DNA of 11,548 bases from a bacterium (GCA_963646285.1 CAVIWF010000063.1:1-11548), one strand, 5' to 3'; positions 352 through 11,548 are shown, counted from the first letter of the stretch. Notes: generated by a model from the letters alone, not told the origin. Numbers and translations are program-made.

Positions 352-545
352 TGAGTCGATGATTAGCGTTTTCAAGCTGATTGAGCATGTGTCGATAGCT
401 GGTTACAAAAGTGTGCTTTAGTAGACACATTTCTTGGAAAAGCAGCGCTTGTGCTGGGCAGAGATCGGCATGTGGTTCGGTGCATTCTGTGAGCGGAATA
501 CGAAAGTCCGCCTTCTTATCATATCAATCAAAAAAGGAGTCATGC

Positions 546-2285
546 ATGATGAGCAAGTTCATGATTGCCTGCCCGGTTTGCCACAGCTATGCGGAGGCAT
601 CGACTGGATTCTTTGCCAGCAAGCACATTCGGTGTTCTTGCGGCAATGTGATTCACGTAAAAACAGATCGGATGGCGACAAAGCGCTGCCCCAGCTGCGG
701 CAACGATGTGGTCTATGATCAGGCAGCAGGGAAGGACGCCAAGTGTCCTGTTTGTCATGCCCCGCTGTTGACCGATAAGGAGATGAATCATCTTGTCTCC
801 TTCCGGTGCACCACTTGCGGATGCCGCCTGCAGGCGGATAAGTGTGCGCAGCAAATCACCTGTCCCGTGTGCGATACGGTGTGCGACGTTCAGCAGGAAG
901 TGAAAAAGGCCGAAGTGCGTGATGCTGGCGTTCCTGCGGTCATCAGCTATGAAGGGGATAACAAAACCTTCGTGTGGAAGCATCCCGTTACGGACTTTGT
1001 GACGGGCAGCCAGCTGATTGTTCACGAAAGTCAGGAGGCTGTTTTCTTCCGCAACGGCGAAGCACTGGATTCCTTCGGCCCAGGCCGTTACACGCTGGAA
1101 ACGGGGATTCTGCCCAAGATGAGTAACCTGTATCCTTTGCCTGTGCAGGGGCAGCCCTTCCATGCAGAAGTCTATTTTGTGAACCTGACCACGCAAATGG
1201 GCATTAAGTGGGGAACGCCCAGTAAGGTTGGCCTCTTTGACCCTGCCACGGGCATCCATGTGGAGCTTGGTGCTTCTGGCTCCTTCAACATGAAGGTGGC
1301 AGATGCACGCCGCCTGCTGATTCGTGTGGTTGGCACCTCTGGCAGCCTGAAGCAGGAAGATATCTTTGGCCAGAATGGCACAGGCTATTTCCGCACCATT
1401 GTAATGACGCAGGTCAAGGCCAATCTGGCGAAGATCATCAAGGCAAACCGCATCAATGTCCTTGAACTGGATGAGCATGTGGATACCATCAGCCGTGCCC
1501 TGCGGGAGGCCATCAATCCGGAGCTTGCAGAATATGGTCTGGAAATGCCGGAGTTTTATGTCAGCAACATTGTAACCCCGGATGAGGATCCCAATCTCCG
1601 CCGCATGAAGCAGCAGCATGCAGATCTCTACCTGAAAACCCGTGAAGAGGAAATCAAGAAGGCCGAGGCAGAAGCCGCATTCGAACGGAAGGCTGTGGAA
1701 GCCCAGACCAAGGCACGGATGAACGTCATCGAAGCCCAAGGGGCAGCAGATGCGGCACGTATTGCAGGGCAGGCACAGGCGGACATTTACCGCATGCAGT
1801 CCGAAGCAGAAGCCCAGGAAATGCGCATGAAGGGCTACACCTACCAGCAGGAAACCGCCCGTCAGGTAGGCGTGGAAGCCATGCGAAACGGCGGCGCAGG
1901 GGTAACAGGCTTTGCCAGCGAGGCCATGCAGCTGGGCATCGGCCTTGGCACGGTGGGCAGCGTCATTGGCATGACGAAGGAAGCCATTCAGCCGGTGATG
2001 CAGGGCGTCAGCAGCATGGCACAGCCCACGCCTCCTGCGGAAAATGCAGGCTGGACGTGCACTTGTGGTCAAAGGAACATCACCAGCAAGTTCTGCCCTG
2101 AGTGCGGCGCAAAGAAGCCGGAGCCGCCTAAGCCTTGGGATTGCACTTGCGGACAGACGGGCATCACCAGCAAATTCTGCCCCAATTGCGGCAGCAAAAA
2201 GCCTGAAACCTGGGACTGCAGCTGCGGTCAAAAGCATATTACCAGCAAGTTCTGCCCTGAATGCGGCAGGAAGCGGGAGGATTAA
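546..2285 (+). CDS. SPFH/band-7 (COG4260, flotillin/'virion core protein'-like) protein with three N-terminal and three C-terminal zinc ribbons
   Basis: Start chosen at ATG 546 (MMSKF...), which follows the RBS AAAAAGGAG (533-540). The upstream extension to 411 has no RBS. Residues 9-109 carry three CxxC...CxC(x)C ribbons. The SPFH core (…ISYEGDNKTFVWKHPVTDFVTGSQLIVHESQEAVFFRNGEALDSFGPGRYTLETG…YFVNLTTQMGIKWGTP…) matches the COG4260 / B. subtilis YdjI-type family. This is followed by an Ala/Glu-rich coiled-coil segment and a Gly-rich hydrophobic patch. The C-terminus is three repeats of W(D/T)C(T/S)CGQ..ITSKFCP(E/N)CG(A/S/R)KK (double zinc-ribbon type). Confidence 0.85.
   Translation: MMSKFMIACPVCHSYAEASTGFFASKHIRCSCGNVIHVKTDRMATKRCPSCGNDVVYDQAAGKDAKCPVCHAPLLTDKEMNHLVSFRCTTCGCRLQADKCAQQITCPVCDTVCDVQQEVKKAEVRDAGVPAVISYEGDNKTFVWKHPVTDFVTGSQLIVHESQEAVFFRNGEALDSFGPGRYTLETGILPKMSNLYPLPVQGQPFHAEVYFVNLTTQMGIKWGTPSKVGLFDPATGIHVELGASGSFNMKVADARRLLIRVVGTSGSLKQEDIFGQNGTGYFRTIVMTQVKANLAKIIKANRINVLELDEHVDTISRALREAINPELAEYGLEMPEFYVSNIVTPDEDPNLRRMKQQHADLYLKTREEEIKKAEAEAAFERKAVEAQTKARMNVIEAQGAADAARIAGQAQADIYRMQSEAEAQEMRMKGYTYQQETARQVGVEAMRNGGAGVTGFASEAMQLGIGLGTVGSVIGMTKEAIQPVMQGVSSMAQPTPPAENAGWTCTCGQRNITSKFCPECGAKKPEPPKPWDCTCGQTGITSKFCPNCGSKKPETWDCSCGQKHITSKFCPECGRKRED
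2052..2282 (+). repeat. Three tandem, about 75-bp DNA-level repeats encoding the C-terminal zinc-ribbon modules of gene 1
   Basis: The peptides WTCTCGQRNITSKFCPECGAKKPE, WDCTCGQTGITSKFCPNCGSKKPE and WDCSCGQKHITSKFCPECGRKRED are encoded by clearly related nucleotide units: tgcacttg(t/c)gg(t/a)ca…atcaccagcaa(g/a)ttctgccc…. Confidence 0.7.
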
Positions 2286-2288
2286 GCA

Positions 2289-2930
2289 ATGAAGATGACC
2301 AAGCGTGCATGGATCATTTGGGGAATTTCTCTGGCAGTTGTGCTCGTGCTGATGGCTGCCATTCCTTTCGTCCGCACGGCAGCGTGGTGGATTGGTGCCG
2401 CTTGCACGGTGGTGATGTTTGGCCTGTGCGCCTTCACGTTCCATCTGGCCTTCCGAAAAGGCGGCGACATCGAAAGCAAGCTCCTTGGCTGGCCCATCTT
2501 CAAGGTGGGTTACACGGCGTTGATTGCCCAGGTGATGGTTGGGGGCATACTCATGGGGATTGCAGCCTTCTGCCCGGCGTGGCCGGCAGTGATTGCGGAG
2601 GTGCTCCTGTTTGCCGCAACAGGCATTTGCCTGACCTTGAAGGAAGCCTCCCGCACGGTGGTGACCCATGGAGAAGCAACCGTGCAGGACAGAACCCAGG
2701 GCTGGAAGGCCATCCGTGCCAAGGCCAACGCCCTGGCAGCATCCAACGGCAATAGGGACATGAAGAAGCTGGCGGAAGAAATCCGCTATGCTGACCCTGC
2801 GCCCACAGAGATGGATGGGAAGATAGCGGAGATGCTGGAGCAAATGACGGGAGAGGTCACGGAACAGAATGTGACGATGGTGAGGCAGATGGTGATGGAG
2901 AGGAAAGAAATGGGGAAGGGGAATAAGTAA
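2289..2930 (+). CDS. Small integral membrane protein (four predicted TM helices plus a charged C-terminal tail of about 90 aa), function unknown
   Basis: ATG 2289 lies 8 nt after GGGAGG (2275-2280) and 3 nt after the gene-1 stop. Four hydrophobic stretches are visible (AWIIWGISLAVVLVLMAAIPFV; WWIGAACTVVMFGLCAFTFHLAF; ALIAQVMVGGILMGIAAF; AVIAEVLLFAATGICLTL), followed by a K/E-rich tail. It may be a YdjH-like partner of the SPFH protein; that link is inference only. Confidence 0.75.
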   Translation: MKMTKRAWIIWGISLAVVLVLMAAIPFVRTAAWWIGAACTVVMFGLCAFTFHLAFRKGGDIESKLLGWPIFKVGYTALIAQVMVGGILMGIAAFCPAWPAVIAEVLLFAATGICLTLKEASRTVVTHGEATVQDRTQGWKAIRAKANALAASNGNRDMKKLAEEIRYADPAPTEMDGKIAEMLEQMTGEVTEQNVTMVRQMVMERKEMGKGNK

Positions 2931-2953
2931 AAAAGTGATTGAGGATGAGAAAA

Positions 2954-3637
2954 ATGGTTAGAAATAGCGTAATCCTGTATAAGTATATATCACGCCAATA
3001 CCTGATGGAGACGTTAAGAAACCAACAGTTGTATCTTGACGATGGTTCGAATTTTAATGATCCATTTGAATTGCTGATTGTAAGCAAAAGCGAGACCAAC
3101 GATAGACGAGTACAAGGGTTACATATACTCTGCCTGACAAATAGCTACAGAAAAAAACTGATGTGGTCTTATTATGGAGAGTCACATAAAGGTGTTTGCT
3201 TAACGATTGAAGTACCGAAAAAAATTGTCTACCCTGTATGCTACACTTCAGCGAGAGTGTATGAAAACAGCAATTTGGATGAGATCATTGCACATAGTAA
3301 CATAAATAGGAGGAAAAACACGAACTGCGATTATTCCACATTGAGCACAGAAAAAAAGATTGCTTTCATCAAGGATAAAAAGTGGAAAGACGAGAAAGAA
3401 TACCGTATTGTGCTCGATGGGAATGATGAAAAACTGCTGACGAATGAAGGCGGTAGATGGTTCTTGAAGGTGAAAATAAAGAACGTGTATCTGGGGGCAA
3501 GGTTTGCAGATGATGGGCAATGTACAGCGTCTGCAATTGAAGAAATATGCAAAGAAAAAAGGATAACAGTCAAGTATATGACACTTTCAAGAAGGAACTA
3601 TGGTCTAGACATAGCAAAGGAGCGTAAACTACCATGA
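2954..3637 (+). CDS. DUF2971-family protein
   Basis: The N-terminus 'ILYKYISRQYLMETLRNQQLYLDDGSNFNDPFEL' matches the hallmark DUF2971 start (LYKY…L…FNDPFE), followed by 'YYGESHKGVCL'. The start could instead be ATG 2945 or TTG 2939; 2954 gives the best spacing to GAGGA (2941-2945). The stop TGA 3635-3637 overlaps the ATG of gene 4. The gene is visibly AT-rich compared with its neighbours. Confidence 0.7.
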   Translation: MVRNSVILYKYISRQYLMETLRNQQLYLDDGSNFNDPFELLIVSKSETNDRRVQGLHILCLTNSYRKKLMWSYYGESHKGVCLTIEVPKKIVYPVCYTSARVYENSNLDEIIAHSNINRRKNTNCDYSTLSTEKKIAFIKDKKWKDEKEYRIVLDGNDEKLLTNEGGRWFLKVKIKNVYLGARFADDGQCTASAIEEICKEKRITVKYMTLSRRNYGLDIAKERKLP

Positions 3638-6600
3638 TCATCAAGTGCAAGATGTGCGGTGGAGACATCGAATTCACCCCGGGTGCGACCTACGGAACGT
3701 GCGAATATTGCGGCAGTACGTCCACCATCCCGAAGGCTGAGGACGAAGTGACCTTGAACCGCTACAACCGTGCGAACCATTTTCGCCGGCAGTGCGAATT
3801 TGATAAGGCTGTTGCGGCCTATGAGAAGATTCTCGAGCAGGATGACACGGATGCTGAAGCCCATTGGGGTGCGGTGCTGAGCCGCTATGGCATCGAATAT
3901 GTGGAAGACCCGACAACCAAGAAGCGCATTCCCACTTGCCATCGGCTGCAGGTGGCATCCATTTTGGCGGATGCGGACTATCTGGCTGCTGTCGAGCATG
4001 CACCTGACGAGGAAAGCCGCAGCCTTTATGAAGAACAGGCAGCGCAGATTGCGGACATTCAGAAAGGCATTCTCGCCATTTCTGCAAACGAGAAACCCTA
4101 CGATGTATTCATCTGCTACAAGGAAACGGATGAAAACGGTCAGCGTACCCGTGACTCGCAGTGGGCGCAGGACGTGTACTATGGCCTGACAGATGCAGGC
4201 TACAAGGTGTTCTTCAGCCGGATTACGCTGGAAGATAAGCTCGGCCAGCAATATGAGCCGTACATCTTTGCTGCACTGAATTCCGCAAAGGTGATGGTGG
4301 CCATTGGCAGCAAGGCAGAATACTTCAATGCCGTGTGGGTGAAGAACGAGTGGAGCCGTTACCTTGCCCTTATGGCCAAGGATCGCAAGCGTCTGCTGAT
4401 CCCTTGCTACCGGGATATGGATCCTTATGACCTGCCTGAAGAACTGTCTGCCCTGCAGAGCCAGGACATGAGCAAAATCGGCTTCATGCAGGATCTGCTC
4501 CGTGGTGTGAAGAAGGTGCTGGAAGCAGATAAAAAGAGTGAGCCGGTGAAACAGTCTGCACAGGTTGTCACCGCAGCATCAACAGCGGCGGTTTCTCCCG
4601 GTGTGACCAGCCTTATGGAGCGGGCTTATCTTTTCATGGAAGACGGCAATTTCGCAAGTGCAGAAGAATATCTGGATCGTGTGCTGGACATTGATCCCAA
4701 GTTTGCTTCAGCTTATGTGGCCAAGGTGTGCGTGACCTTCCAGTTGCGCAGAGAAGCTGAACTGGCGGAAACTACTTTCCAGTATGAGGACAATGCCGAT
4801 TGGCGGAAGGCTATGCGCTTTGCCAACCCGCAGCAGAAAGCTGTCTATGAGAACTATGCAGCAAAGGTAAAGGAACGCACAGAGCGTCAGATCCGGGATT
4901 ATTCCTACGATTGTGCCATGGAAATGGCAGTGAACCCCTATGCCAATAAGAACAAACTGGACAAAGAATTATCGTACTATAAGGTCTCCTGCACCCATTC
5001 TGACGGCTGCAGGGCTGACGGCAGCCGCCGAAAGAACAGCCAGATGAACGAGGACGCATTCAGACAGAATTTGAAAAGCAATGAGCCCGGCGATTTGAGT
5101 GAGCAAAACTTCAATACGGCCGCCGCCATGTTCGATGAAATTAAGGATAGCGATGCAGCCGAATGTGCCGGACAATGCCGCACGCTGGCGGAACAGGCAC
5201 GGCAGAAGAAAATCTACAAGGAAGCGGTAGCTGCATCGCAGAGCAACAGGGTACCTGATTTGCGGCAGGCGCAAGTGCTTTTTGCAAGCATTCCGCAGTA
5301 CAAGGATGCTGAGATGCGTGCAAAAAAGACGCAAGAAAAGATTGATAACATTCAGGCAAGCATCTATGCGGAAGCCGTGCAGGCTATGCAGAACGCAAAA
5401 GGAAACAGCTGGGATTGGTTAAATGTTAAGCATAAGCTGAGCAATAGGGTACTGGACAATTACCGTGATGTGGCTGCTTTGCGGATTCAGGCAGAAAAAC
5501 AGTATCATGAGAGCATTGCCAAGGAAGATGAAATGAGGCGCCGGCAGGCGGCCAGGAAAAAGAAGATGACCATCCTCGGCAGCACTGCCGCAGCAGTGGT
5601 AATTGCAATCATCCTGCTGGTAACGCAGGTGATTATCCCGTCTAATAATTATAACCATGCAGTGTCGTTGCGTGCAGCAGAAGATTGGGATGGAGCACGT
5701 GAAGCCTTTGCGTCTGCCGGCGACTACAGCGATGCGACAACGCAAATCAAGGCCACTTACTACGCCGAAGGCGAGGCCAAGCGGGCAGCAGGCGAGTGGA
5801 CTGAAGCCGTGGAAGCTTTCACGAATGCCGGCGACTACAGCGATGCGGCGACGCAAATCAAGGTCATCTACTACGCAGAAGGCGAAGCCAAGCGAGAAGC
5901 AGGCGAGTGGACTGAAGCCGTGGAAGCTTTCAAGAATGCAGGCGACTACAGCGATGCGGCAACGCAAATCAAGGCTACCTATTACGCCGAAGGCGAGGCC
6001 AAGCGGGCAGCAGAAGATTGGGATGAAGCACGTGAAGCCTTTGCGTCTGCCGGTGACTACAGCGATGCGGCAACACAAATCATGGTCACCTACTACGCAG
6101 AAGGCGAAGCCAAGCGAGAAGCAGGCGAGTGGACAGAAGCCGTGGAAGCTTTCACGAATGCAGGCGACTACAGCGATGCGGCAACGCAAATCAAAGAAAC
6201 TGAATATCAGAAAGCGCAGGCTCTGTATGCCTCCGCTGACTATGCAAATGCCTACACCACCTATAAGAGCATTTCTGGGTATAAAGATGTTGACAATCTA
6301 CTGGAAACAGACGAAAATCTAAAAGCAGCACTCGAAGCAAAGTTTACGGTTGGAAACTACGTAGAATTCGGTACCTATCCGCAAACAGCATCCGGCACGG
6401 ATAGCACACCCATCGAGTGGCTGGTGCTGGCGAGAGATGGGAACAAGGCACTGCTGATCAGCCGTTATGGCTTGGATACGCAACCATACAACAAAAAGAA
6501 GACGAATGTCACCTGGGAGGAATGCACGCTGCGCACCTGGTTGAACGGCACATTCATGAACAAAGCCTTTACTGCGAACGAACAGACCGGCATCCTGCTG

Positions 6601-6984
6601 ACAAATGTAGACAACAGCAGCAGTCAAGGATATAGCGGGTGGAGCACGAGCGGCGGAAACAATACCCAGGATAAGATCTTCCTGTTGAGTTATGCGGAAG
6701 CAAATCAATACCTGGATGTCACTTATGATGATAGCAATAACATGAAATCCAGGGTAGCGCCGACAGCGTATGCGAAGAAACAGGGAGCTGTTACATCCGA
6801 CTATGATAAGACAGCAGATGGTGATGAGTCCGGGTGGTGGTGGCTGCGTTCGCCGGGCAAAAAGCTGAGCGCCGCCGCGCGCGTGTACTACGACGGCTCC
6901 CTCAGCAACAACTACTATGTCAACAGTGGCAGTATTTGTGTCCGCCCCGCTTTGTGGGTTGATCTGGAATCTGGCATCTTCTGA
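3634..6984 (+). CDS. Single-pass membrane TIR-domain protein. The N-terminal Zn ribbon, TPR-like region and TIR are cytoplasmic; one TM helix follows; the 37-aa tandem repeats and DUF6273-like C-terminal domain are extracellular.
   Basis: RBS AAGGAG (3617-3622) precedes ATG 3634. Residues 5-27 form a CxxC…CxxC ribbon. Residues 153-290 form a TIR fold: 'KPYDVFICYKETDENG' is the betaA strand and 'AVWVKNEWSRYLALMA' carries the W…E motif, with Glu239 encoded at 4348-4350. Residues 300-640 are TPR-like and Lys/Arg-rich. The only long hydrophobic helix is 'MTILGSTAAAVVIAIILLVTQVII' (about aa 645-668, nt 5566-5637). Then come 4.6 × 37-aa repeats, and a C-terminal domain with 'GTYPQTASGTDSTPIEWLVLA…DKIFLLSYAEANQYL…WWWLRSPG…ICVRPALWVDL' that is typical of DUF6273. 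Confidence 0.9.
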   Translation: MIIKCKMCGGDIEFTPGATYGTCEYCGSTSTIPKAEDEVTLNRYNRANHFRRQCEFDKAVAAYEKILEQDDTDAEAHWGAVLSRYGIEYVEDPTTKKRIPTCHRLQVASILADADYLAAVEHAPDEESRSLYEEQAAQIADIQKGILAISANEKPYDVFICYKETDENGQRTRDSQWAQDVYYGLTDAGYKVFFSRITLEDKLGQQYEPYIFAALNSAKVMVAIGSKAEYFNAVWVKNEWSRYLALMAKDRKRLLIPCYRDMDPYDLPEELSALQSQDMSKIGFMQDLLRGVKKVLEADKKSEPVKQSAQVVTAASTAAVSPGVTSLMERAYLFMEDGNFASAEEYLDRVLDIDPKFASAYVAKVCVTFQLRREAELAETTFQYEDNADWRKAMRFANPQQKAVYENYAAKVKERTERQIRDYSYDCAMEMAVNPYANKNKLDKELSYYKVSCTHSDGCRADGSRRKNSQMNEDAFRQNLKSNEPGDLSEQNFNTAAAMFDEIKDSDAAECAGQCRTLAEQARQKKIYKEAVAASQSNRVPDLRQAQVLFASIPQYKDAEMRAKKTQEKIDNIQASIYAEAVQAMQNAKGNSWDWLNVKHKLSNRVLDNYRDVAALRIQAEKQYHESIAKEDEMRRRQAARKKKMTILGSTAAAVVIAIILLVTQVIIPSNNYNHAVSLRAAEDWDGAREAFASAGDYSDATTQIKATYYAEGEAKRAAGEWTEAVEAFTNAGDYSDAATQIKVIYYAEGEAKREAGEWTEAVEAFKNAGDYSDAATQIKATYYAEGEAKRAAEDWDEAREAFASAGDYSDAATQIMVTYYAEGEAKREAGEWTEAVEAFTNAGDYSDAATQIKETEYQKAQALYASADYANAYTTYKSISGYKDVDNLLETDENLKAALEAKFTVGNYVEFGTYPQTASGTDSTPIEWLVLARDGNKALLISRYGLDTQPYNKKKTNVTWEECTLRTWLNGTFMNKAFTANEQTGILLTNVDNSSSQGYSGWSTSGGNNTQDKIFLLSYAEANQYLDVTYDDSNNMKSRVAPTAYAKKQGAVTSDYDKTADGDESGWWWLRSPGKKLSAAARVYYDGSLSNNYYVNSGSICVRPALWVDLESGIF
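4090..4503 (+). other. TIR domain, predicted NAD+-hydrolase type with the catalytic Glu present, inside gene 4
   Basis: YDVFICY (betaA) and WVKNEW (alphaC 'W…E') motifs were read from the translation. Boundaries are approximate. Confidence 0.75.
5686..6196 (+). repeat. 4.6 near-identical in-frame tandem repeats of 111 bp (37 aa, TPR/Sel1-like 'W.EA.EAF..AGDYSDA.TQIK..YYAEGEAKR.AGE')
   Basis: The repeat-initial TGG codons sit at 5686, 5797, 5908, 6019 and 6130, exactly 111 bp apart. The units come in two flavours: A (WDGAREAFASAG…) and B (WTEAVEAFTNAG…). Their order is A-B-B-A-B(partial), which implies a duplication of a 333-bp A-B-B block. Confidence 0.85.
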
Positions 6985-7203
6985 TTTTTGATCCCGAATC
7001 TTGTGCACTGCATAAAAAGAGGGCAGGGTGGGGTGCAATCTTTGCCGTGCCCAAGTGTATAATCTTTCTCATGGAAGTCCCTCCTGCGTGTTGGCTGTGT
7101 ATGCCTATTCTGCACGCTGGAGGGGTTTCCCTTTTTGCAGAAAAGAGCCGCCCCATACGAGACGACTCCCATCATCCGCAAGGCGCTTCCCGCACCCCGC
7201 CTA

Positions 7204-8631
7204 TCATTCTTCTTCCTTCATCTTCAGCCCGCAGAAGTCGGCCATGGTCTTGACCAGCCCCCGTGCCCGGGCAGAGGTGGGCATTTCGCAGAAGATCCGC
7301 AGCCGGGGTTCCGTGCCAGAGAAGCGGGCAATGAGCCAGCCGTCGGCAAAGCGAACCTTTACCCCGTCCATGTAGCTGACGGAGGTGATCTCCTCGCTGA
7401 ACTGGGGCAGCTTCTTGTCCACCATCAGCAGCTGCTGCAGCCGATCCTTCATGGCCTGGTCGAAGGGCCAGTCAAACTCCAGCATCACCAGGTGACCGTA
7501 CCGCTTGTACAGGTCTTCCACCAGTTCGCTCAGCTTCTTGCCGGTTACGGCCAGCATTTCCACCAGCAGGGCAGCGGCATAAATGCCATCCTTGCCCTGG
7601 ATGTGCCCCCGAACGGTCAGGCCGCCGCTGGATTCGCCGCCGATAACCGCTCCGTGCTCCTCCATGGCGGAAGAAATGTACTTGAAGCCCACCGGCACCT
7701 CGTAGCACTTTTCCCCGTAGGCTTCTGCCACCTTGTCCAGCAGGTGGGTGGTGGCCAGGTTCCGCACGGCGCAGCCGTGCCAGCCCTTGATGCGCAGCAG
7801 ATAGTCGTACAGCAGCACCAGAATCTCATTGGGATGAATGAACCGACCCTTGTCGTCAATAATGCCCAGCCGGTCCGCATCGCCGTCGGTGGCAATGCCG
7901 ATGTCTGCATGATTCTCCTGCACGGCAGCACGGAGAGCGCCCAGAGTTTCCACATTGGGGGCAGGCAGGCGGCCGCCGAACAGGGTGTCGTGCCGCTCGT
8001 GAATCACATCCACATCGCACCGGGCCGTCAGCAGAATGGTTTGCAGGCTGGTGCGGCTTACGCCGTACATGGGGTCAAGGATAATGCGCAGCCCCCGGCT
8101 GCGAATGGCATCCATGTTCACCGCACGGATGATGCTGTCCAGATAAGCGTTCTGGGGATTGATCTCTTCGATCAGCCCGGTTTCAATACCCTTGGCATAG
8201 GGCATGGGATGGAGCTCCTCTTCCTTAATGGCGTTGGCAGCGTCCCCGATTTCGTTGGTGACTTCCTCCACAGCGTCCCGGCCGCCCTTGGTGAACAGCT
8301 TGATGCCGTTGTACAGAGCAGGGTTGTGGCTGGCGGTGACTGCCATGCCGTAATAAAGACCATAATCCTTCACCGTGAACATGATCAGGGGAGTGGGGGC
8401 TTCCCGGTCAATCACCCGGGTGTGAATGCCCTCGCTGGCCATGATTTCGGCAACCCATTCCGTGGCTTCTCTGGAAAGGAAGCGGCGATCATACCCGATA
8501 ACAAACCCCCGGCCGTCGCACTCTTCCGCCTTCATCCGCCGTGCCACAGCCAGTGCCAGCCGCTGAATATTCACACGGATAAAGTCGTCACCAATGATTG
8601 CACGCCATCCGCCGGTACCAAAATGAATCAT
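7204..8631 (-). CDS. Alpha-D-phosphohexomutase (phosphoglucomutase/phosphomannomutase family)
   Basis: All four family motifs are present: 'GMAVTASHNP' (phosphoserine loop), 'ATDGDADRLG' (metal loop), 'IGGESSGG' (sugar loop) and 'RFSGTEPRLR' (phosphate loop). The N-terminus is 'FGTGGWRA'. The RBS GAGGAGG sits about 10 nt upstream of ATG 8631 on the minus strand. The gene runs convergent to gene 4. Confidence 0.9.
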   Translation of the reverse strand: MIHFGTGGWRAIIGDDFIRVNIQRLALAVARRMKAEECDGRGFVIGYDRRFLSREATEWVAEIMASEGIHTRVIDREAPTPLIMFTVKDYGLYYGMAVTASHNPALYNGIKLFTKGGRDAVEEVTNEIGDAANAIKEEELHPMPYAKGIETGLIEEINPQNAYLDSIIRAVNMDAIRSRGLRIILDPMYGVSRTSLQTILLTARCDVDVIHERHDTLFGGRLPAPNVETLGALRAAVQENHADIGIATDGDADRLGIIDDKGRFIHPNEILVLLYDYLLRIKGWHGCAVRNLATTHLLDKVAEAYGEKCYEVPVGFKYISSAMEEHGAVIGGESSGGLTVRGHIQGKDGIYAAALLVEMLAVTGKKLSELVEDLYKRYGHLVMLEFDWPFDQAMKDRLQQLLMVDKKLPQFSEEITSVSYMDGVKVRFADGWLIARFSGTEPRLRIFCEMPTSARARGLVKTMADFCGLKMKEEE

Positions 8632-8777
8632 CTTACATACCTCCTCAGCTTCCCGCCTCAGGCAGGTCGTATCTAATCTCTACACCTATGGAATTCTCCG
8701 TAATTCAGGCTATTCCTTCTTTCTGAAAAAATGTTTCGGAAGTTGTATTATTCTTGTATTAAATATGACTAACGCCC

Positions 8778-8806
8778 TTGCCATCCCGGCGGCATGTTGG
8801 TATACT
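8778..8806 (+). promoter_or_regulatory. Candidate sigma-70 promoter TTGCCA (8778-8783), 17 nt spacer, TGgTATACT (8798-8806) for the MBL-hydrolase gene
   Basis: Good -35/-10 hexamers and spacing. The predicted TSS falls essentially at the RBS, giving a very short leader, so confidence is modest. Confidence 0.3.
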
Positions 8807-8826
8807 ATGCTTGGAGGTGTCGTTTT

Positions 8827-9576
8827 ATGCTGCATCAAATCACTGAGCACTGTTATGCGCTTCCCTTCGATGAACGGACGGATCGCCCTTCCCTGGGATA
8901 CGTGCGGGGAGATCGCTTCACCCTGCTGGTGGATGGGGGCAACAGTCCTGACCATATGGCATTGATGCACCGTGCCCTGGATGAGAAGGGTCTGCCCCGG
9001 GAGCAGCTGGTTGCCGTGACCCACAGCCACTGGGATCATACCTATGGCCTGTGCGCAACGGATGCCCCGGTCATCGCCTGCCGAAAGGCGCAAAAGGCAC
9101 TCCTTGCCATGCAGCACTGGGCATGGACGCCGGAGGATATGCAGCATCGGCTGGATACCCGGGAGGATATTCTCTTCTGCCACGACTTTATCCTGAAGGA
9201 ATACGCTGATCCCACCGCCATTCGGGTTCGTGCTGCGGATATTGTGTTTGATGAATTTCTGGAGCTGGACCTGGGGGGCGTGCATGCCCGGCTCATGCGG
9301 CTGAACAACAGCCACTCCCATGACAGCGTGGTGGTCTTTATCCCGGAGGACGGGGTGGTGTACCTGGGGGACATTGCCTACAAGGATCTGCACCACCAGC
9401 CCCCCTGCTGGCATGCCAACCGCCGGGCAGATTTGATGGGTGCACTGGATCGGCTGGATTTCCAGTGGGCAGTGCCCGGCCACCATGGCACCTGCCAGCG
9501 GGATGCATTCTTCCGGGGCATGGAGGAGGAGTTCGCCCAGGATAAGGCGGCGGGCATTCCTGTGCTGCAAGACTGA
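8827..9576 (+). CDS. MBL-fold metallo-hydrolase
   Basis: ATG 8827 follows GGAGGTG (8813-8819). The metal-binding motif 'THSHWDH' (HxHxDH variant) is present, along with a downstream His ('NNSHSHD') and Asp 'YLGDIAY'. These are typical of metallo-beta-lactamase-fold hydrolases. Confidence 0.8.
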   Translation: MLHQITEHCYALPFDERTDRPSLGYVRGDRFTLLVDGGNSPDHMALMHRALDEKGLPREQLVAVTHSHWDHTYGLCATDAPVIACRKAQKALLAMQHWAWTPEDMQHRLDTREDILFCHDFILKEYADPTAIRVRAADIVFDEFLELDLGGVHARLMRLNNSHSHDSVVVFIPEDGVVYLGDIAYKDLHHQPPCWHANRRADLMGALDRLDFQWAVPGHHGTCQRDAFFRGMEEEFAQDKAAGIPVLQD

Positions 9577-9651
9577 ATCCATCAGTGCAAGGGAGCATTT
9601 TCCCTTGCGCTTTCGTTTATTATGTGGATAGTTTTCGTGGAGGTACGTTTC

Positions 9652-11397
9652 ATGAAACGATGGTATTGCTGCCTTTTTTTGGCAGTGCTTTTCCTGTTGC
9701 CCATGGGGTGCAGGGCGGAAACCGCCATTTACGCCTTTGCTGATGCCTGGCCGGAAGCCCTTGCTTCTGCCGTGGCGGATACCCCCTTGGCTGCCGCCCG
9801 GCCGGTGGAAGGCTACGTGGCTTTCCGGGATGGGGCAACTTCCCACGGGGCAGCCGTTGCCCGGGATGATACCGGGTACCTGCTGGCGGTGTTCCACAGG
9901 GAAGGGGAAAGGTGGCAGGCTGATTATTCCCGGCAGGCCCTTCGGCAGGATGCGCCGCCCCAGATGTGGAATCAGGCCCTTTCCGAGGAGTGGAGCAAGG
10001 CAGACATTGCCGCCTATGATGGATCGGATCAGTTCGATTTGATTTATGCCGATGTGCGGTACACCTGGCAGGCGGAGGGGGATACCTGGCGCCTGACCCG
10101 TGCCCTGCTGCCTGTGGCCAACGTGGTAGTGAATGATCACCAGCTGTACTGGAACGAAGAGACGGTCTTTTATCCCCAGGAAACCACCCTGTCCGGTTTT
10201 GCGGAGGAAACCTTTCCCCGCACCCTGCTGGCAGCCCAGACCAATGCGGCTGCATCCCAGGAACAGGATCCTTCCCGTGGGGTGACCACCGGGGCAGGGG
10301 TGGGCACGGACTTCCCGGTAACCCTGTACGCCGCCCCTTCCAGTGGCAGCACGGTGGTGGGCTACTATGCCGCCGGGGTGGAAGCCCAGGTGCTGGATCA
10401 GGGCAGCGGCTACGTGAAGCTGGAGATAGGTGGCACCTTCTCCGGCTGGACGGAGGAGACCCATTTCCTTGCCGGTGCTTCGGCGGATGGTGCCGCTGAC
10501 CTTGCTGGGGAAATCACCATTCCTTCCCCCTTGAACGGCAAGTATTGTTCCCTGCTGGATGCCCCCAAGGCGGATGCTTCCTCCATTGCCCTGCTGGGGG
10601 TGCTGTTTCAGGTGCGTGTGCTGGGCATTACGGCAGATGGGGCCTACCTGCACGTGGCGCTGGCGGACGGGCAGACAGGGTATTTGCCTGCATCCTCCGT
10701 TTCGGCAGGGGAGGTGTGGATCACCAGTGATGCCCGGGAAAACCGGCTGAACCTGCGTCAATCCCCTTCCACCAAAGCCCAGACCCTGGGGAAGTATTTC
10801 GGCGGCGTGAAGGCTCAGCGGCTGTACGCCCCTCCGGCGGACACGGCGTGGATGCGGGTCAGCATTTACGGCTACACAGGCTGGATGATGAGTTCCTTCC
10901 TGGATACGGATGCATCTTCCGTGCCGGACATGCTGCCCCCTCTGGCAGTGGTGGATCCTGAAAACGACAGCACCCTGAACCTGCGCCTGGAGCCGGATCA
11001 GAAGAGCGACGCTCTTGCCCAGTACCCTTCCGGCACAGTGGTGGAAATTCTGGGGGTGAACAGCAACTGGGCTCATGTGCGGGTGGTGGACGGCAGTACC
11101 GGCTTCATGCTGCTGAAGTATGTGGGGGGCGAGCCTGTGTCCGCCGTGAAGAACGCCTTCCCTCTGGCGCAGGAGACTACCCTGACCGATGCCTTCGGCA
11201 ATGAAAATGTGACCCTGCCTGCCGGAACCGGTGTGGCCTCGGCAGAGGGACGGCTGTGCGCCCAGTGGCGGTACGATATCAGCAGCGGCGGCATGGTTTT
11301 CGCCCTGCCGGAGCAGGTGGAGCTTCACGCCGCAGACGCATGGGGCTATGTGCTGACGGAAAACGCCCCTGACATGTGGGCAATGGATGAAGAGTAA
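9652..11397 (+). CDS. Secreted protein with an N-terminal signal peptide and about four bacterial SH3 (SH3b/SH3_3) domains
   Basis: ATG 9652 follows GGAGGT (9639-9644). 'MKRWYCCLFLAVLFLLPMGCRAE' is a signal peptide; the lipobox is non-canonical. The segments 'LNLRQSPSTKAQTLGKYFGG…WMRVSIYGYTGWM' and 'LNLRLEPDQKSDALAQYPSGTVVEILGVNSNWAHVRV…GFM' are SH3b-like. Confidence 0.8.
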   Translation: MKRWYCCLFLAVLFLLPMGCRAETAIYAFADAWPEALASAVADTPLAAARPVEGYVAFRDGATSHGAAVARDDTGYLLAVFHREGERWQADYSRQALRQDAPPQMWNQALSEEWSKADIAAYDGSDQFDLIYADVRYTWQAEGDTWRLTRALLPVANVVVNDHQLYWNEETVFYPQETTLSGFAEETFPRTLLAAQTNAAASQEQDPSRGVTTGAGVGTDFPVTLYAAPSSGSTVVGYYAAGVEAQVLDQGSGYVKLEIGGTFSGWTEETHFLAGASADGAADLAGEITIPSPLNGKYCSLLDAPKADASSIALLGVLFQVRVLGITADGAYLHVALADGQTGYLPASSVSAGEVWITSDARENRLNLRQSPSTKAQTLGKYFGGVKAQRLYAPPADTAWMRVSIYGYTGWMMSSFLDTDASSVPDMLPPLAVVDPENDSTLNLRLEPDQKSDALAQYPSGTVVEILGVNSNWAHVRVVDGSTGFMLLKYVGGEPVSAVKNAFPLAQETTLTDAFGNENVTLPAGTGVASAEGRLCAQWRYDISSGGMVFALPEQVELHAADAWGYVLTENAPDMWAMDEE

Positions 11398-11418
11398 AGA
11401 AGAATAAAGACAATGAAA

Positions 11419-11454
11419 AGGGCTGATGTGAAGAATCAATTTCACATCAGCCCT
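11419..11454. terminator. Perfect 14-bp stem hairpin (agggctgatgtgaa / ttcacatcagccct, 8-nt loop) 22 nt after the stop of the SH3b gene
   Basis: The stem was read directly from the sequence. The T-rich run lies on the minus-strand side (11396-11418 reads aagaagaataaagacaatgaaaa on +). So it looks like an intrinsic terminator oriented for leftward transcription, or a bidirectional one lacking a + strand U-tract. Confidence 0.4.
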
Positions 11455-11461
11455 CAGGGCA

Positions 11462-11490
11462 TCGACAAAGTGGCCTTGCCACTTTGTCGA
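11462..11490. other. Second perfect hairpin (tcgacaaagtggc / gccactttgtcga, 13 bp, 3-nt loop), followed by (CACT)3 and further GAACGG/CCGTTC stems up to the window edge
   Basis: Read directly. It forms a dense structured region of unknown function, possibly a REP-like element, an ncRNA, or stacked terminators. Confidence 0.4.
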
Positions 11491-11548
11491 GTTGTGCACT
11501 CACTCACTGGTCGAACGGTTTCACCGTTCTCCCGGCCGTTCGTTCGTG

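What the first reader, a model, noticed from the sequence alone, without database searches (positions are those of the whole stretch)
3634..6984. Inside-out Toll-like-receptor topology: cytoplasmic Zn-ribbon/TPR/TIR, one TM helix, extracellular repeat array + DUF6273 domain
The only strongly hydrophobic helix is at about aa 645-668 (5566-5637). The cytoplasmic side carries the TIR and is flanked by Lys/Arg-rich sequence ('RRRQAARKKKM' immediately precedes the helix). By the positive-inside rule, that places the N-terminal 640 aa in the cytoplasm. The 37-aa repeats and the WWWLRSPG-containing DUF6273-like domain then face outward; DUF6273 is usually found on surface proteins of Firmicutes. So an extracellular or cell-wall-sensing ectodomain is physically coupled to a cytosolic TIR enzymatic domain. 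This is a receptor logic analogous to TLRs and unusual among characterised bacterial TIR proteins.
Basis: partly seen in the sequence, partly recalled or inferred. Interest (0 to 1): 0.8.

Follow-up and report, generated by a model that had tools for sequence, protein, structure and literature searches.

The report
Membrane-spanning bacterial TIR receptor with diversifiable lectin head
This gene encodes a single-pass membrane protein of gut Clostridia that joins an outward-facing, hypervariable lectin-like binding domain to an inward-facing TIR domain, so it looks like a bacterial counterpart of a Toll-like receptor whose sensor tip can be rewritten by a mutagenic retroelement in relatives.

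Summary
ORF 3634-6984 (1116 aa) has an N-terminal Cys4 zinc ribbon, TPR, a TIR_2 domain (aa 158-281), a helical solenoid, one hydrophobic helix (aa 645-668), five 37-aa TPR-like repeats and a C-terminal DUF6273 domain. Flanking charge (7 K/R before the helix, 1 after) puts the TIR inside. That bias holds in 179 of 181 single-helix homologues.

Only the sequence order is reversed; sensor-out and TIR-in is the TLR arrangement.

New findings:
- DUF6273 is a C-type-lectin fold, the scaffold targeted by diversity-generating retroelements (DGRs).
- In six related loci, Avd lies directly downstream of the TIR gene. Five of these show an adenine-specific variable/template repeat pair, and four show a reverse transcriptase.
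- Between near-identical strains, the window's own variable-region equivalent (6862-6936) differs by 24-32%, against 2.3% for the cytoplasmic part. No DGR lies in the window.
- The N-terminal module heads at least 4012 protein clusters with varied tails (DUF6273, RCC1 propeller, BspA LRR, RHS).
- It sits in a conserved operon with an SPFH/zinc-ribbon protein and a 4-TM protein.

NADase activity, signalling and any defence role are inferred. I found no published description.

The parts
411..2285 (+). Partner gene 1: soluble SPFH/Band-7 protein. It has N-terminal zinc ribbons, a coiled coil and three C-terminal 'WxCxCG..TSKFCPxCG' ribbons. The real start is probably Met46/47, near nt 546.
   Evidence: Pfam Band_7_1 at aa 196-392, E 7e-41. 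No TM segment. A homologue lies next to the TIR gene in 56-58 of 80 related loci.
2289..2930 (+). Partner gene 2: 213-aa membrane protein with four predicted TM helices and a cytoplasmic helical tail of about 100 aa. It matches no known family.
   Evidence: Hydropathy peaks at aa 9, 38, 70 and 99. No Pfam, NCBIfam or PADLOC hit. A homologue sits between the SPFH and TIR genes in 53 of 81 loci.
2939..3637 (+). Accessory DUF2971 gene (PADLOC candidate defence family PDC-S31). It appears to be a low-GC insertion, and its stop codon overlaps the TIR gene start (ATGA).
   Evidence: Pfam DUF2971 E 2.4e-07. PADLOC PDC-S31 E 9e-25. GC 0.38 against 0.52-0.58 in the flanks. Found at this position in only a few loci: L005, L072 and L073 among the 80, plus the syntenic strain contigs L081 and L082.
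3634..6984 (+). The TIR receptor gene, 1116 aa.
3634..3726 (+). Cys4 zinc ribbon (C5, C8, C23, C26), cytoplasmic.
   Evidence: Sequence. AlphaFold2 places short beta strands at aa 2-31. M7, C8, G9, G10, C23 and C26 are invariant and C5 nearly invariant in 54 sequences.
3745..3885 (+). N-terminal TPR-like helices, aa 38-84.
   Evidence: Pfam TPR_2/TPR_1 at aa 44-72. PDB consensus-TPR hits at E 3e-08.
4096..4521 (+). TIR domain, aa 155-296. Pfam TIR_2 covers aa 158-281 (nt 4105-4476).
   Evidence: Pfam E 1.6e-14. PDB profile hits to TLR15, TcpB and L6 TIR domains. AlphaFold2 gives an alternating strand/helix pattern: strands 158-163, 192-197, 220-225 and 254-259; helices 173-187, 208-217 and 234-249.
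4348..4350 (+). Codon of Glu239 in the motif W235-x-x-x-E239, the putative catalytic residue.
   Evidence: It aligns with the Glu of L6 'WCLMEL', TcpB 'WPAREL' and TLR15 'WCQYEL'. It is invariant in alignments A2 (54 sequences) and A4 (43 sequences). A WxxxE-type motif is present in 147 of 150 cluster representatives.
4603..5556 (+). Cytoplasmic all-helical (TPR-like) solenoid, aa 324-641. It ends in the basic juxtamembrane stretch RRRQAARKKK.
   Evidence: AlphaFold2 pLDDT about 90, all helices. Pfam TPR hits at aa 326-363. Foldseek finds only TPR solenoids.
5566..5637 (+). The single transmembrane helix, aa 645-668.
   Evidence: Kyte-Doolittle peak 2.55, the only segment above 1.1. Conserved in 120 of 120 close homologues. 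Positive-inside bias.
5638..6342 (+). Extracellular stalk: five 37-aa TPR-like helical-hairpin repeats plus one degenerate copy, aa 669-903.
   Evidence: Tandem Repeats Finder: 111-bp period, 4.3 copies, at 5715-6194. Match to a designed consensus-TPR protein, E 9e-07. AlphaFold2 helical hairpins with pLDDT mostly 76-96, about 90 through the 37-aa repeats. Copy number differs between strains; L081 lacks three repeats.
6346..6969 (+). Extracellular DUF6273 domain with a C-type-lectin-like fold, aa 905-1112.
6835..6957 (+). Equivalent of a DGR variable region, running from WWWLRSPG to VRPALW. The hypervariable core is 6862-6936.
   Evidence: In relatives this same stretch is a variable region paired with an adenine-rich template repeat. 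Between near-identical strains it differs by 32% and 24%, with 21/23 and 15/17 changes at codon positions 1-2. The cytoplasmic part differs by 2.3%, mostly at position 3. No template repeat or reverse transcriptase lies in the window.

Best explanation
The gene encodes a type II (N-in, C-out) single-pass membrane receptor.

Outside the cell, a stalk of TPR-like 37-aa repeats holds up a C-type-lectin-fold head (DUF6273). The ligand-binding tip of that head is the stretch that DGRs rewrite in relatives.

Inside the cell, a zinc ribbon, TPR helices, a TIR domain with a conserved WxxxE glutamate, and a long helical solenoid form a highly conserved signalling module.

The protein works in a conserved operon with a soluble SPFH/zinc-ribbon scaffold protein and a 4-TM membrane protein.

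The most likely mechanism is as follows. Binding of an external, probably multivalent, ligand such as a phage particle or a foreign cell-surface structure clusters the receptors in the membrane. The SPFH scaffold may assist. Clustering brings the TIR domains together, which activates NAD+ cleavage. The result is NAD+ depletion or production of a nucleotide signal, leading to growth arrest or an envelope response.

Shown: the domain architecture, the conserved single helix and its charge bias, the lectin fold, the operon, ectodomain swapping among paralogues, DGR cassettes in relatives, and localised hypervariation in this lineage.

Inferred: actual topology in the cell, ligand identity, TIR enzymatic activity, activation by clustering, the role of the SPFH protein, and any defence role.
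For: Architecture and topology:
- Domain calls and hydropathy.
- Ectodomains of paralogues are typical exported domains: DUF6273 in 36 of 54, RCC1 propeller in 9 of 54, BspA LRR_5 with Flg_new, and RHS.
- Lectin fold: and PMC10743442.

DGR link:
- Adenine-specific VR/TR pairs in L022, L027, L048, L072 and L073: 21/21, 18/20, 18/21, 18/21 and 17/21 (two VRs in L072), and 16/17 mismatches at template adenines.
- bAvd and RVT_1 genes lie downstream in L027 and L073. Avd with or without RT also follows in L022, L043, L048 and L072.
- The window's VR-equivalent diverges 24-32% between strains that are 96-97.6% identical, with changes at codon positions 1-2.
- Protein P0001 is 99%, 97% and 100% identical in the cytoplasmic and TM parts but 46% identical in aa 1076-1102.
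- A cognate Avd plus template repeat exists in a metagenome (L085). Against the VR of strain L082 it shows 13 mismatches at adenine sites and 3 at other sites.

TIR competence:
- Glu239 aligns with the Glu of L6 and TcpB and is invariant.
- The cytoplasmic module is far more conserved than the tail: 71-100% identity in aa 1-300 against 37-91% in the repeats.

Operon: the SPFH protein and the 4-TM protein are the only other genes conserved across 81 loci.

Precedent for SPFH recruitment: YdjI/SamI-type soluble Band_7_1 proteins are recruited to the membrane by operon-encoded membrane proteins (PMC8581546).

Precedent for the concept: DGR-diversified 'antigen sensors' with TIR or peptidase effectors in other bacteria (PMC10907252, PMC7159879).

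Defence hint: a PADLOC candidate defence gene (PDC-S31) is inserted inside the operon.
Against: - There are no experimental data of any kind for this family.
- The window has no template repeat, Avd or reverse transcriptase. Neither do the syntenic strain contigs: L081 within 10 kb upstream and 4.5 kb downstream of the gene, L082 along its whole 8.5 kb.
- The window's VR allele has a 3-nt indel and about 8 non-adenine differences from the closest template found. It is shared almost unchanged with P0003. It may therefore be a frozen, no longer diversified copy.
- A Glu at this position also occurs in non-enzymatic TLR TIR domains, so it does not prove NADase activity.
- The AlphaFold2 confidence for the TIR region is only 60-80.
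- No PADLOC defence-system model matches the TIR protein, the SPFH protein or the 4-TM protein.
- No recognisable sensor of TIR-made nucleotides (SLOG, Macro, SAVED) is encoded in the conserved cluster.
- Some DGR-targeted lectin domains elsewhere are cytoplasmic (PMC10907252), so the DGR link alone does not prove surface exposure.
- Of the 150 best cluster representatives, 39 have no predicted TM helix.
Confidence: 0.5

Rival explanations
1. It is a surface adhesin or binding protein, like most membrane-anchored cellular DGR targets. The ectodomain attaches the cell to particles, mucus, other microbes or host molecules. The cytoplasmic TIR module reports or regulates attachment, for example through an NAD-derived messenger or the SPFH complex. 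It is not an immune trigger.
For: - Roux et al. (PMC8144416) find that most cellular DGR targets are membrane-anchored proteins with binding or adhesion domains.
- The closest solved DUF6273 structure is part of an IgA protease of a gut bacterium.
- Ectodomains of paralogues (BspA LRR, Flg_new, RCC1) are typical adhesin modules.
- No known defence model matches the conserved proteins.
Against: - Adhesins do not need a 640-aa cytoplasmic module that is the most conserved part of the protein.
- The strictly conserved WxxxE glutamate points to catalysis.
- From my own knowledge, characterised bacterial TIR domains act almost exclusively in conflict systems.
- A candidate defence gene is embedded in the operon.
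Confidence: 0.22
2. It is an envelope-stress sensor complex. The TIR domain acts as a non-enzymatic interaction scaffold that docks the SPFH protein and the 4-TM protein, by analogy with the B. subtilis SamGHI/YdjGHI membrane stress sensor. The ectodomain monitors the state of the cell wall or envelope rather than foreign ligands.
For: - The SPFH partner is of the Band_7_1 type with zinc ribbons, like YdjI (PMC8581546; PMC11237479).
- YdjG also begins with a zinc ribbon (MIISYKCPNC, read from the primer in PMC8581546), compared with MIIKCKMCGG here.
- The SPFH protein and the 4-TM protein are the only conserved neighbours.
- TLR-type TIR domains signal without catalysis and also carry the Glu.
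Against: - No PspA gene lies in the window or the conserved cluster.
- The 4-TM protein has no TPM domain, unlike YdjH.
- Swapping of very different ectodomains and DGR hypervariation fit recognition of diverse, changing external ligands. They do not fit recognition of an invariant self envelope.
Confidence: 0.15
3. The topology is the reverse. The N-terminal Zn-ribbon/TPR/TIR part is exported and the DUF6273 domain is cytoplasmic, as some DGR-targeted lectin sensors are. Alternatively, the hydrophobic segment does not span the membrane.
For: - Cytoplasmic DGR-targeted lectin domains exist in other bacteria (PMC10907252).
- No dedicated topology predictor was run.
- AlphaFold2 confidence at the helix is low.
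- 39 of the 150 best cluster representatives lack a TM helix.
Against: - The K/R bias is 7 against 1 here, and N>C holds in 179 of 181 single-helix homologues with none showing the reverse.
- There is no signal peptide, and 640 residues including a Cys4 zinc site would have to be exported.
- There are 14 Cys on the N-terminal side against 2 on the C-terminal side.
- Paralogue tails are hallmark extracellular domains.
- The hydropathy peak of 2.55-3.6 is conserved in all close homologues.
Confidence: 0.04

Closest known systems
Animal Toll-like receptors (LRR ectodomain, one TM helix, cytoplasmic TIR)
   Same: A repeat-containing sensor outside, one membrane helix and a TIR inside. A Glu sits at the same position as in TLR15 'WCQYEL'. 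One paralogue (L052) even has an LRR ectodomain.
   Different: - The order along the chain is reversed: type II signal-anchor, no signal peptide, TIR at the N-terminal side.
- The ectodomain here is a TPR-like stalk plus a C-type-lectin head, not LRR.
- There are extra cytoplasmic Zn-ribbon and TPR modules.
- The partners are an SPFH protein and a 4-TM protein, not TIR adaptors.
- The resemblance is an analogy of layout. There is no evidence of shared descent beyond the TIR fold.
DGR-diversified putative antigen sensors of multicellular bacteria (Thiohalocapsa PB-PSB1 and cyanobacteria; PMC10907252, PMC7159879, PMC7517822)
   Same: A C-terminal C-type-lectin variable domain is coupled to conflict-type effector domains, including TIR. 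Relatives of the window protein have canonical target-Avd-TR-RT cassettes.
   Different: - Those sensors are built around STAND NTPases or MoxR-vWA ternary systems and are mostly predicted to be cytoplasmic.
- This family has no NTPase and is a single-pass membrane protein with the lectin head outside.
- It occurs in unicellular gut and rumen Clostridia and is linked to SPFH and 4-TM genes.
- The lectin domain is the DUF6273 type rather than the FGE/TvpA type.
Surface or phage DGR targets with a C-type-lectin fold (Bordetella phage Mtd, Treponema TvpA, tentaclins and Faecalibacterium prophage DUF6273 targets)
   Different: Those proteins are binding proteins only: tail fibres or lipoproteins. 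None carries a transmembrane link to a cytoplasmic signalling or enzymatic domain.
Bacterial TIR defence proteins (Thoeris ThsB, TIR-STING, TIR-SAVED, SPARTA TIR-APAZ, SpbK, AbTir/TcpB-type NADases)
   Same: A TIR domain with the WxxxE-type glutamate. It aligns with TcpB.
   Different: - All characterised examples are soluble and sense intracellular cues.
- No PADLOC model for these systems matches.
- No ThsA-like or other nucleotide-sensing effector lies in the operon.
B. subtilis PspA-YdjGHI (SamGHI) membrane stress module
   Same: The partner SPFH protein is a soluble Band_7_1 protein with zinc ribbons, like YdjI. It is encoded next to membrane proteins that could recruit it (PMC8581546; PMC11237479).
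   Different: There is no PspA and no TPM-domain YdjH. The membrane partner here is a TIR receptor with a variable ectodomain.
Thomasclavelia ramosa IgA protease N-terminal domain (PDB 9qa6)
   Different: There it is the N-terminal domain of a secreted, cell-wall-anchored metallopeptidase. There is no TIR, no TM coupling and no reported DGR.

Membership tests
TIR domain superfamily (Pfam TIR_2, PF13676) | Sequence match above the curated threshold | tested here: met
   54.9 bits against a cutoff of 28, E 1.6e-14, aa 158-281.
TIR domain superfamily (Pfam TIR_2, PF13676) | Flavodoxin-like alternating strand/helix fold with a BB loop | tested here: met
   AlphaFold2 strands at 158-163, 192-197, 220-225 and 254-259 alternate with helices at 173-187, 208-217 and 234-249. 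The BB-loop region 198-207 has low confidence, and domain pLDDT is only 60-80. No domain-level fold search was done.
Enzymatic (NADase) TIR domains | Catalytic glutamate at the position of L6 E135, TcpB/BtpA E217 and SARM1 E642. The residue numbers are from my own knowledge. | tested here: met
   E239 aligns with the Glu of L6 'WCLMEL' and TcpB 'WPAREL'. It is invariant in 54 and 43 sequences. This feature is necessary but not sufficient, because TLR15 has the Glu too.
Enzymatic (NADase) TIR domains | NAD+ cleavage activity | not testable with these tools
   This needs a biochemical assay of the wild type against E239A.
DUF6273 / C-type-lectin-like fold | HMM match and C-type-lectin fold | tested here: met
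DGR target gene | A variable region paired with a template repeat that differs almost only at template adenines | tested here: not met
   No second copy exists in the 11.5-kb window. The feature is met in relatives L022, L027, L048, L072 and L073. A near-cognate template (L085) exists in a metagenome, but it matches strain L082 better than the window.
DGR target gene | Reverse transcriptase and Avd accessory gene nearby | tested here: not met
   None is present in the window or in the syntenic strain contigs L081 and L082. Both are present directly downstream in L027 and L073. Avd with or without RT is present in L022, L043, L048 and L072. A DGR acting in trans elsewhere in the genome cannot be excluded.
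DGR target gene | Hypervariation confined to the variable region, at codon positions 1-2 | tested here: met
   Region 6862-6936 shows 32% and 24% mismatches, with 21/23 and 15/17 at positions 1-2. The cytoplasmic part shows 2.3%, mostly at position 3. P0001 is 46% identical in the VR against 94-100% in the flanking regions.
Toll-like receptors | N-terminal signal peptide, LRR ectodomain and type I topology | tested here: not met
   There is no signal peptide and the orientation is type II. The ectodomain is TPR-like repeats plus a lectin fold. An LRR ectodomain occurs only in a paralogue, L052.
Known anti-phage TIR systems (Thoeris, CBASS/TIR, SPARTA and others in PADLOC-DB 2.0) | Match to a system protein model plus the cognate partner genes | tested here: not met
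   The TIR protein gave only one sub-threshold match (Csx1, 18 bits, no significant domain). The SPFH protein and the 4-TM protein gave none. Only the inserted DUF2971 gene matches the candidate family PDC-S31.
PspA-YdjGHI/SamGHI module | Band_7_1 SPFH protein with zinc ribbon, plus PspA, plus TPM-domain YdjH | tested here: not met
   Band_7_1 with zinc ribbons is present. No PspA and no TPM domain are present in the window or the conserved cluster.

The most novel reading that the evidence does not exclude
This family is a bacterial outside-in immune receptor system. An extracellular lectin-fold head, whose specificity is rewritten by a diversity-generating retroelement, recognises phage particles or foreign cells at the surface before genome entry. 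The signal crosses the membrane and switches on a cytoplasmic TIR NADase, with an SPFH scaffold organising the receptor clusters. In layout this would be a prokaryotic counterpart of Toll-like receptors combined with antibody-like diversification. Arrays of paralogues carrying LRR, propeller, RHS or lectin ectodomains would form a receptor repertoire.
Probability: 0.25. Interest if true: 0.92.

Novelty: new variant of a known kind. Interest (0 to 1): 0.8.

Why it matters
All characterised bacterial TIR immune proteins sense events inside the cell. A family that physically couples an exposed binding domain to a cytoplasmic TIR would be the first candidate for transmembrane, outside-in TIR signalling in bacteria.

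The family is large: at least 4012 clusters at 50% identity and at least 586 species-level genomes. It is concentrated in gut and rumen Clostridia.

It shows three features expected of a receptor repertoire:
- a constant signalling module,
- swapped ectodomains in tandem paralogues,
- retroelement-driven hypermutation of the binding tip in a subset.

It also links two fields that have been studied separately in the gut microbiome: DGR hypervariation, mostly attributed to phage tail fibres, and TIR-based immunity. It assigns a candidate function to the conserved SPFH and 4-TM gene pair.

The hypothesis is directly testable with an NADase assay, topology reporters and phage challenge.

Tried and rejected
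1. PADLOC and NCBIfam scans of the TIR protein and its neighbours gave nothing beyond PDC-S31 for the DUF2971 gene. The locus therefore cannot be filed under a known defence system.
2. Foldseek of the full-length model against the PDB returned only TPR solenoids and was uninformative for the TIR and N-terminal parts.
3. A search for a template repeat or reverse transcriptase in the window and in syntenic strains L081 and L082 found none. I rejected the idea that this copy has an adjacent DGR.
4. The metagenome scan with the 21-nt VR 5' end returned mostly unrelated or distant lectin genes. Only L085 (Avd plus template), L090, L111 and L114 were informative.
5. I considered that the 4-TM protein is a YdjH homologue. 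I rejected this because YdjH is a TPM-domain protein and p213 has no Pfam hit.
6. The literature hit for 'Band-7 + TIR' concerned CesT/Tir chaperones, not Toll/IL-1R domains.
7. Long antisense ORFs (540-2843 minus strand, 7135-8676 plus strand, 8710-11499 minus strand) gave no Pfam hits. I treated them as shadows of the real genes.
8. The paper on the IgA protease gave no function for its DUF6273 domain that could be transferred.


Full report
**1. The observation**

The plus-strand ORF 3634-6984 encodes 1116 residues.

Pfam finds the following:
- TPR repeats at aa 44-72 and 326-363.
- A TIR_2 domain at aa 158-281 (E 1.6e-14).
- DUF6273 at aa 937-1110 (E 6.5e-31).

A Kyte-Doolittle scan finds one hydrophobic segment only, aa 645-668 (nt 5566-5637), with a peak of 2.55. 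Nothing else exceeds 1.1. Seven Lys/Arg lie in the 15 residues before it and one in the 15 after.

The N-terminus is a Cys4 ribbon (C5, C8, C23, C26), not a signal peptide.

Five 37-aa repeats follow the helix, with AGDYSDA cores at aa 695, 732, 769, 806 and 843. Tandem Repeats Finder reports a 111-bp period with 4.3 copies.

**2. Is the layout conserved?**

All 120 best database homologues (54-92% identity) have exactly one predicted helix at about aa 645-665. All but one, an N-terminally truncated entry, have WVKNEW or WVRNEW at about aa 235-240.

The K/R bias is conserved:
- It averages 6.5 against 2.2 in these 120, with N>C in 119 and the reverse in none.
- It averages 6.6 against 1.9 in 61 more distant single-helix homologues, with N>C in 60 and the reverse in none.

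They come almost entirely from gut and rumen Clostridia: Oscillospiraceae, Christensenellales, Lachnospiraceae, Ruminococcus and Anaerovoracaceae.

An exhaustive HMMER search with aa 1-300 found 4012 clusters (50% identity) at E <= 1e-30. In the 150 best-scoring representatives listed, the match begins at or within a few residues of the N-terminus (one at residue 39, one at 12), and total lengths range from 424 to 1895 aa. Of the best 150, 84 have one helix, 27 have two to six, and 39 have none. A WxxxE-type motif is present in 147.

**3. What lies beyond the helix**

A Pfam survey of 54 post-helix tails from related loci gave:
- DUF6273 in 36.
- RCC1-like propellers in 9.
- BspA-type LRR_5 in 3.
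- LRR_8 in 2.
- RHS repeats in 2.
- TPR-like repeats in about 17.

Individual examples include L009, L010, L026 and L028 (propellers), L040 (RHS) and L052. L052 carries four Listeria-Bacteroides repeats, an InlB B-repeat and BspA LRR_5 at E 1e-70.

These are typical exported surface domains of Firmicutes. This agrees with the positive-inside argument. It also agrees with the Cys distribution: 14 Cys before the helix and 2 after it.

Many loci carry two or three tandem paralogues with different tails. In total there are 131 family members in 81 loci.

The cytoplasmic module is the constant part and the ectodomain is the variable part. In aa 1-300, homologues are 71-100% identical. In the repeats they are 37-91% identical.

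**4. The DUF6273 head**

Published work reaches the same conclusion. It shows that DGR variable regions map to the C-terminal end of DUF6273 in phage proteins (PMC10743442, PMC11792537).

**5. DGR link in relatives**

Self-comparison of the 80 loci found a characteristic pattern in L022, L027, L048, L072 (two targets) and L073. The last 120-160 bp of the TIR-TM-DUF6273 gene has a second copy downstream (about 700 bp in most; 0.7 and 4.5 kb for the two targets in L072). The mismatches fall almost only at adenines of the downstream copy: 21/21, 18/20, 18/21, 18/21, 17/21 and 16/17.

The downstream copy is rich in AAY codons. The homology runs from the WWWLRSPG codons to the VRPA codons.

The genes in between and after are bAvd and an RVT_1 reverse transcriptase in L027 and L073. 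tblastn finds Avd in all six loci (L022, L027, L043, L048, L072, L073) and RT in L022, L027, L043 and L073.

About 7 of 37 DUF6273-type genes with enough downstream sequence are therefore canonical DGR targets.

**6. The window's own copy**

No template, Avd or RT lies in the window.

Two contigs from near-identical strains, L081 and L082, are 96-97.6% identical in DNA from nt 1226 onward. They have the same gene order and also lack a DGR in the sequence available: 10 kb upstream and 4.5 kb downstream of the gene in L081, and the whole 8.5-kb contig in L082.

Even so, divergence among these strains is sharply localised:
- In 6862-6936, 32% and 24% of bases differ, with 21/23 and 15/17 changes at codon positions 1-2.
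- In the cytoplasmic part, 2.3% of bases differ, with 32 of 45 changes at position 3.

At the protein level, P0001 is 99%, 97% and 100% identical in the N-terminal, middle and TM parts. It is 46% identical in aa 1076-1102.

A metagenome scan with the 21-nt 5' end of the VR found L085, a short contig carrying Avd followed by an AAC/AAT-rich template:
- Against the L082 VR it differs at 13 adenine sites and 3 other sites.
- Against the window VR it differs at 13 adenine sites and about 8 other sites, plus a 3-nt indel.

Close relatives L090 and L111 (76-79% identity in the lectin head) have RT or Avd on the same short contigs.

The window's VR allele recurs almost unchanged in P0003.

My reading is that this lineage has been diversified by a DGR. 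The window copy is either diversified in trans or, more likely, currently frozen.

**7. The TIR domain**

A profile of aa 140-300 from 43 family members hits the TIR domains of TLR15, TcpB and L6 in the PDB. Glu239 aligns with the Glu of 'WCQYEL', 'WPAREL' and 'WCLMEL'.

From my own knowledge, these are the catalytic positions L6 E135 and BtpA/TcpB E217, equivalent to SARM1 E642. The W-x-x-x-E spacing is the motif described for AbTir-type enzymes.

E239 is invariant. The presence of the same Glu in a TLR shows that it is necessary but not sufficient for activity.

The full-length AlphaFold2 model has mean pLDDT 81. It shows:
- The expected strand/helix alternation in the TIR region, at moderate confidence (60-80).
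- A disordered linker at aa 299-319.
- A confident helical solenoid at aa 324-641.
- Helical hairpin repeats outside the membrane.

**8. Genomic context**

Clustering all ORFs of 81 loci shows only two other conserved genes.

The first is an SPFH protein, present in 56 loci. It has a Band_7_1 domain, zinc ribbons at both ends and no TM helix.

The second is a 4-TM protein of about 213-232 aa, present in 53 loci.

Both usually lie immediately upstream in the order SPFH, 4-TM, TIR gene or genes.

YdjI-type Band_7_1 proteins of B. subtilis are soluble and are recruited to the membrane by operon-encoded membrane proteins (PMC8581546). By analogy, the SPFH protein here may assemble on the receptor or on the 4-TM protein. 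However, there is no PspA and no TPM-domain YdjH.

In the window, a low-GC DUF2971 gene (GC 0.38) is inserted between the 4-TM gene and the TIR gene. It matches the PADLOC candidate defence family PDC-S31, and its stop overlaps the TIR start.

**9. Mechanism and rivals**

The best-supported reading is a type II membrane receptor. Its exposed head is a diversifiable lectin fold, and its cytoplasmic TIR is activated when ligand binding clusters the receptors. The SPFH scaffold possibly assists.

The main rivals are:
- An adhesin with a regulatory cytoplasmic module.
- A non-enzymatic envelope-stress complex.
- A reversed topology, which is very unlikely.

No sensor domain for TIR-made nucleotides is encoded in the cluster. 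If the TIR is active, NAD+ depletion is the simpler output.

**10. Comparison with known systems, and novelty**

The layout matches TLRs topologically but not in chain order or ectodomain type, so the protein is not a TLR family member.

Conceptually, it is closest to the DGR-diversified 'antigen sensors' with TIR or peptidase effectors described in multicellular bacteria (PMC10907252, PMC7159879, PMC7517822). Those are NTPase-based and mostly cytoplasmic.

The large survey of DGR targets does not mention TIR at all (PMC8144416). Seven full-text searches found no description of a TIR-TM-lectin family or of its SPFH linkage.

I rate it a new variant of a known kind and of high interest. The functional claims remain untested.

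Noticed in passing
window 2939-3637: The DUF2971 gene has GC 0.38 against 0.52-0.58 in its neighbours. It matches the PADLOC candidate defence family PDC-S31. It occupies this slot between the 4-TM and TIR genes in only a few related loci. It looks like a recent insertion into the operon, with its stop overlapping the TIR start codon (ATGA).
   Followed up: partly
window 411-1225: The 5' half of the SPFH gene (zinc ribbons and the start of the SPFH domain) has no DNA counterpart in the otherwise 96-97.6% identical strains L081 and L082. Identity begins abruptly at nt 1226. In L081 an unrelated 542-aa ORF lies upstream, and the SPFH product is called as only 331 aa.
   Followed up: no
window 6715-6745: A second short hypervariable patch (23-35% mismatches between near-identical strains, almost all at codon positions 1-2) lies about 120 nt upstream of the variable-region equivalent. 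It is outside the stretch covered by template repeats in relatives. It may be a neighbouring loop of the binding surface.
   Followed up: no
window 5715-6194; L081 10001-13021: The number of 37-aa stalk repeats differs between strains. L081 encodes 1006 aa and lacks three repeats, so stalk length is variable.
   Followed up: partly
L072 8621-8780, 12406-12561, 13098-13257: One template repeat matches the variable regions of two tandem TIR-receptor paralogues in the same locus. A single DGR therefore appears to serve two receptors.
   Followed up: partly
L052 4092-7850: A paralogue has the same cytoplasmic Zn-ribbon/TPR/TIR module and one helix. Its ectodomain consists of four Listeria-Bacteroides repeats, an InlB B-repeat and a BspA-type LRR (E 1e-70). 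This is literally LRR outside and TIR inside.
   Followed up: partly
L102 26-3562: A compact DGR (Avd, a template at 580, RT) with two short lectin-only targets shares the exact 21-nt 5' end of the window's variable region. The same template family therefore seems to be used by small, possibly phage-borne targets and by TIR receptors.
   Followed up: no
protein P0003 compared with window 3634-6984: The identity pattern is mosaic: 98% in aa 1-300, 77% in aa 301-640 and 57% in aa 641-670, 90-94% in the repeats and lectin head, and 93% in the variable region. This suggests recombination between alleles and a stable variable-region allele.
   Followed up: no
window 540-2843 (-), 7135-8676 (+), 8710-11499 (-): Three very long ORFs lie on the opposite strand to real genes (SPFH/4-TM, phosphoglucomutase-type mutase, SH3 protein). 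They have no family matches and appear to be antisense shadows in GC-rich coding sequence.
   Followed up: partly
L012, L014, L024, L029, L034, L050, L057; P0126 and others: Some relatives with the same N-terminal TIR module have no predicted membrane helix, and others have two to six. Soluble and multi-pass versions of the family therefore exist. Some of the helix-free cases may be truncated gene calls.
   Followed up: no
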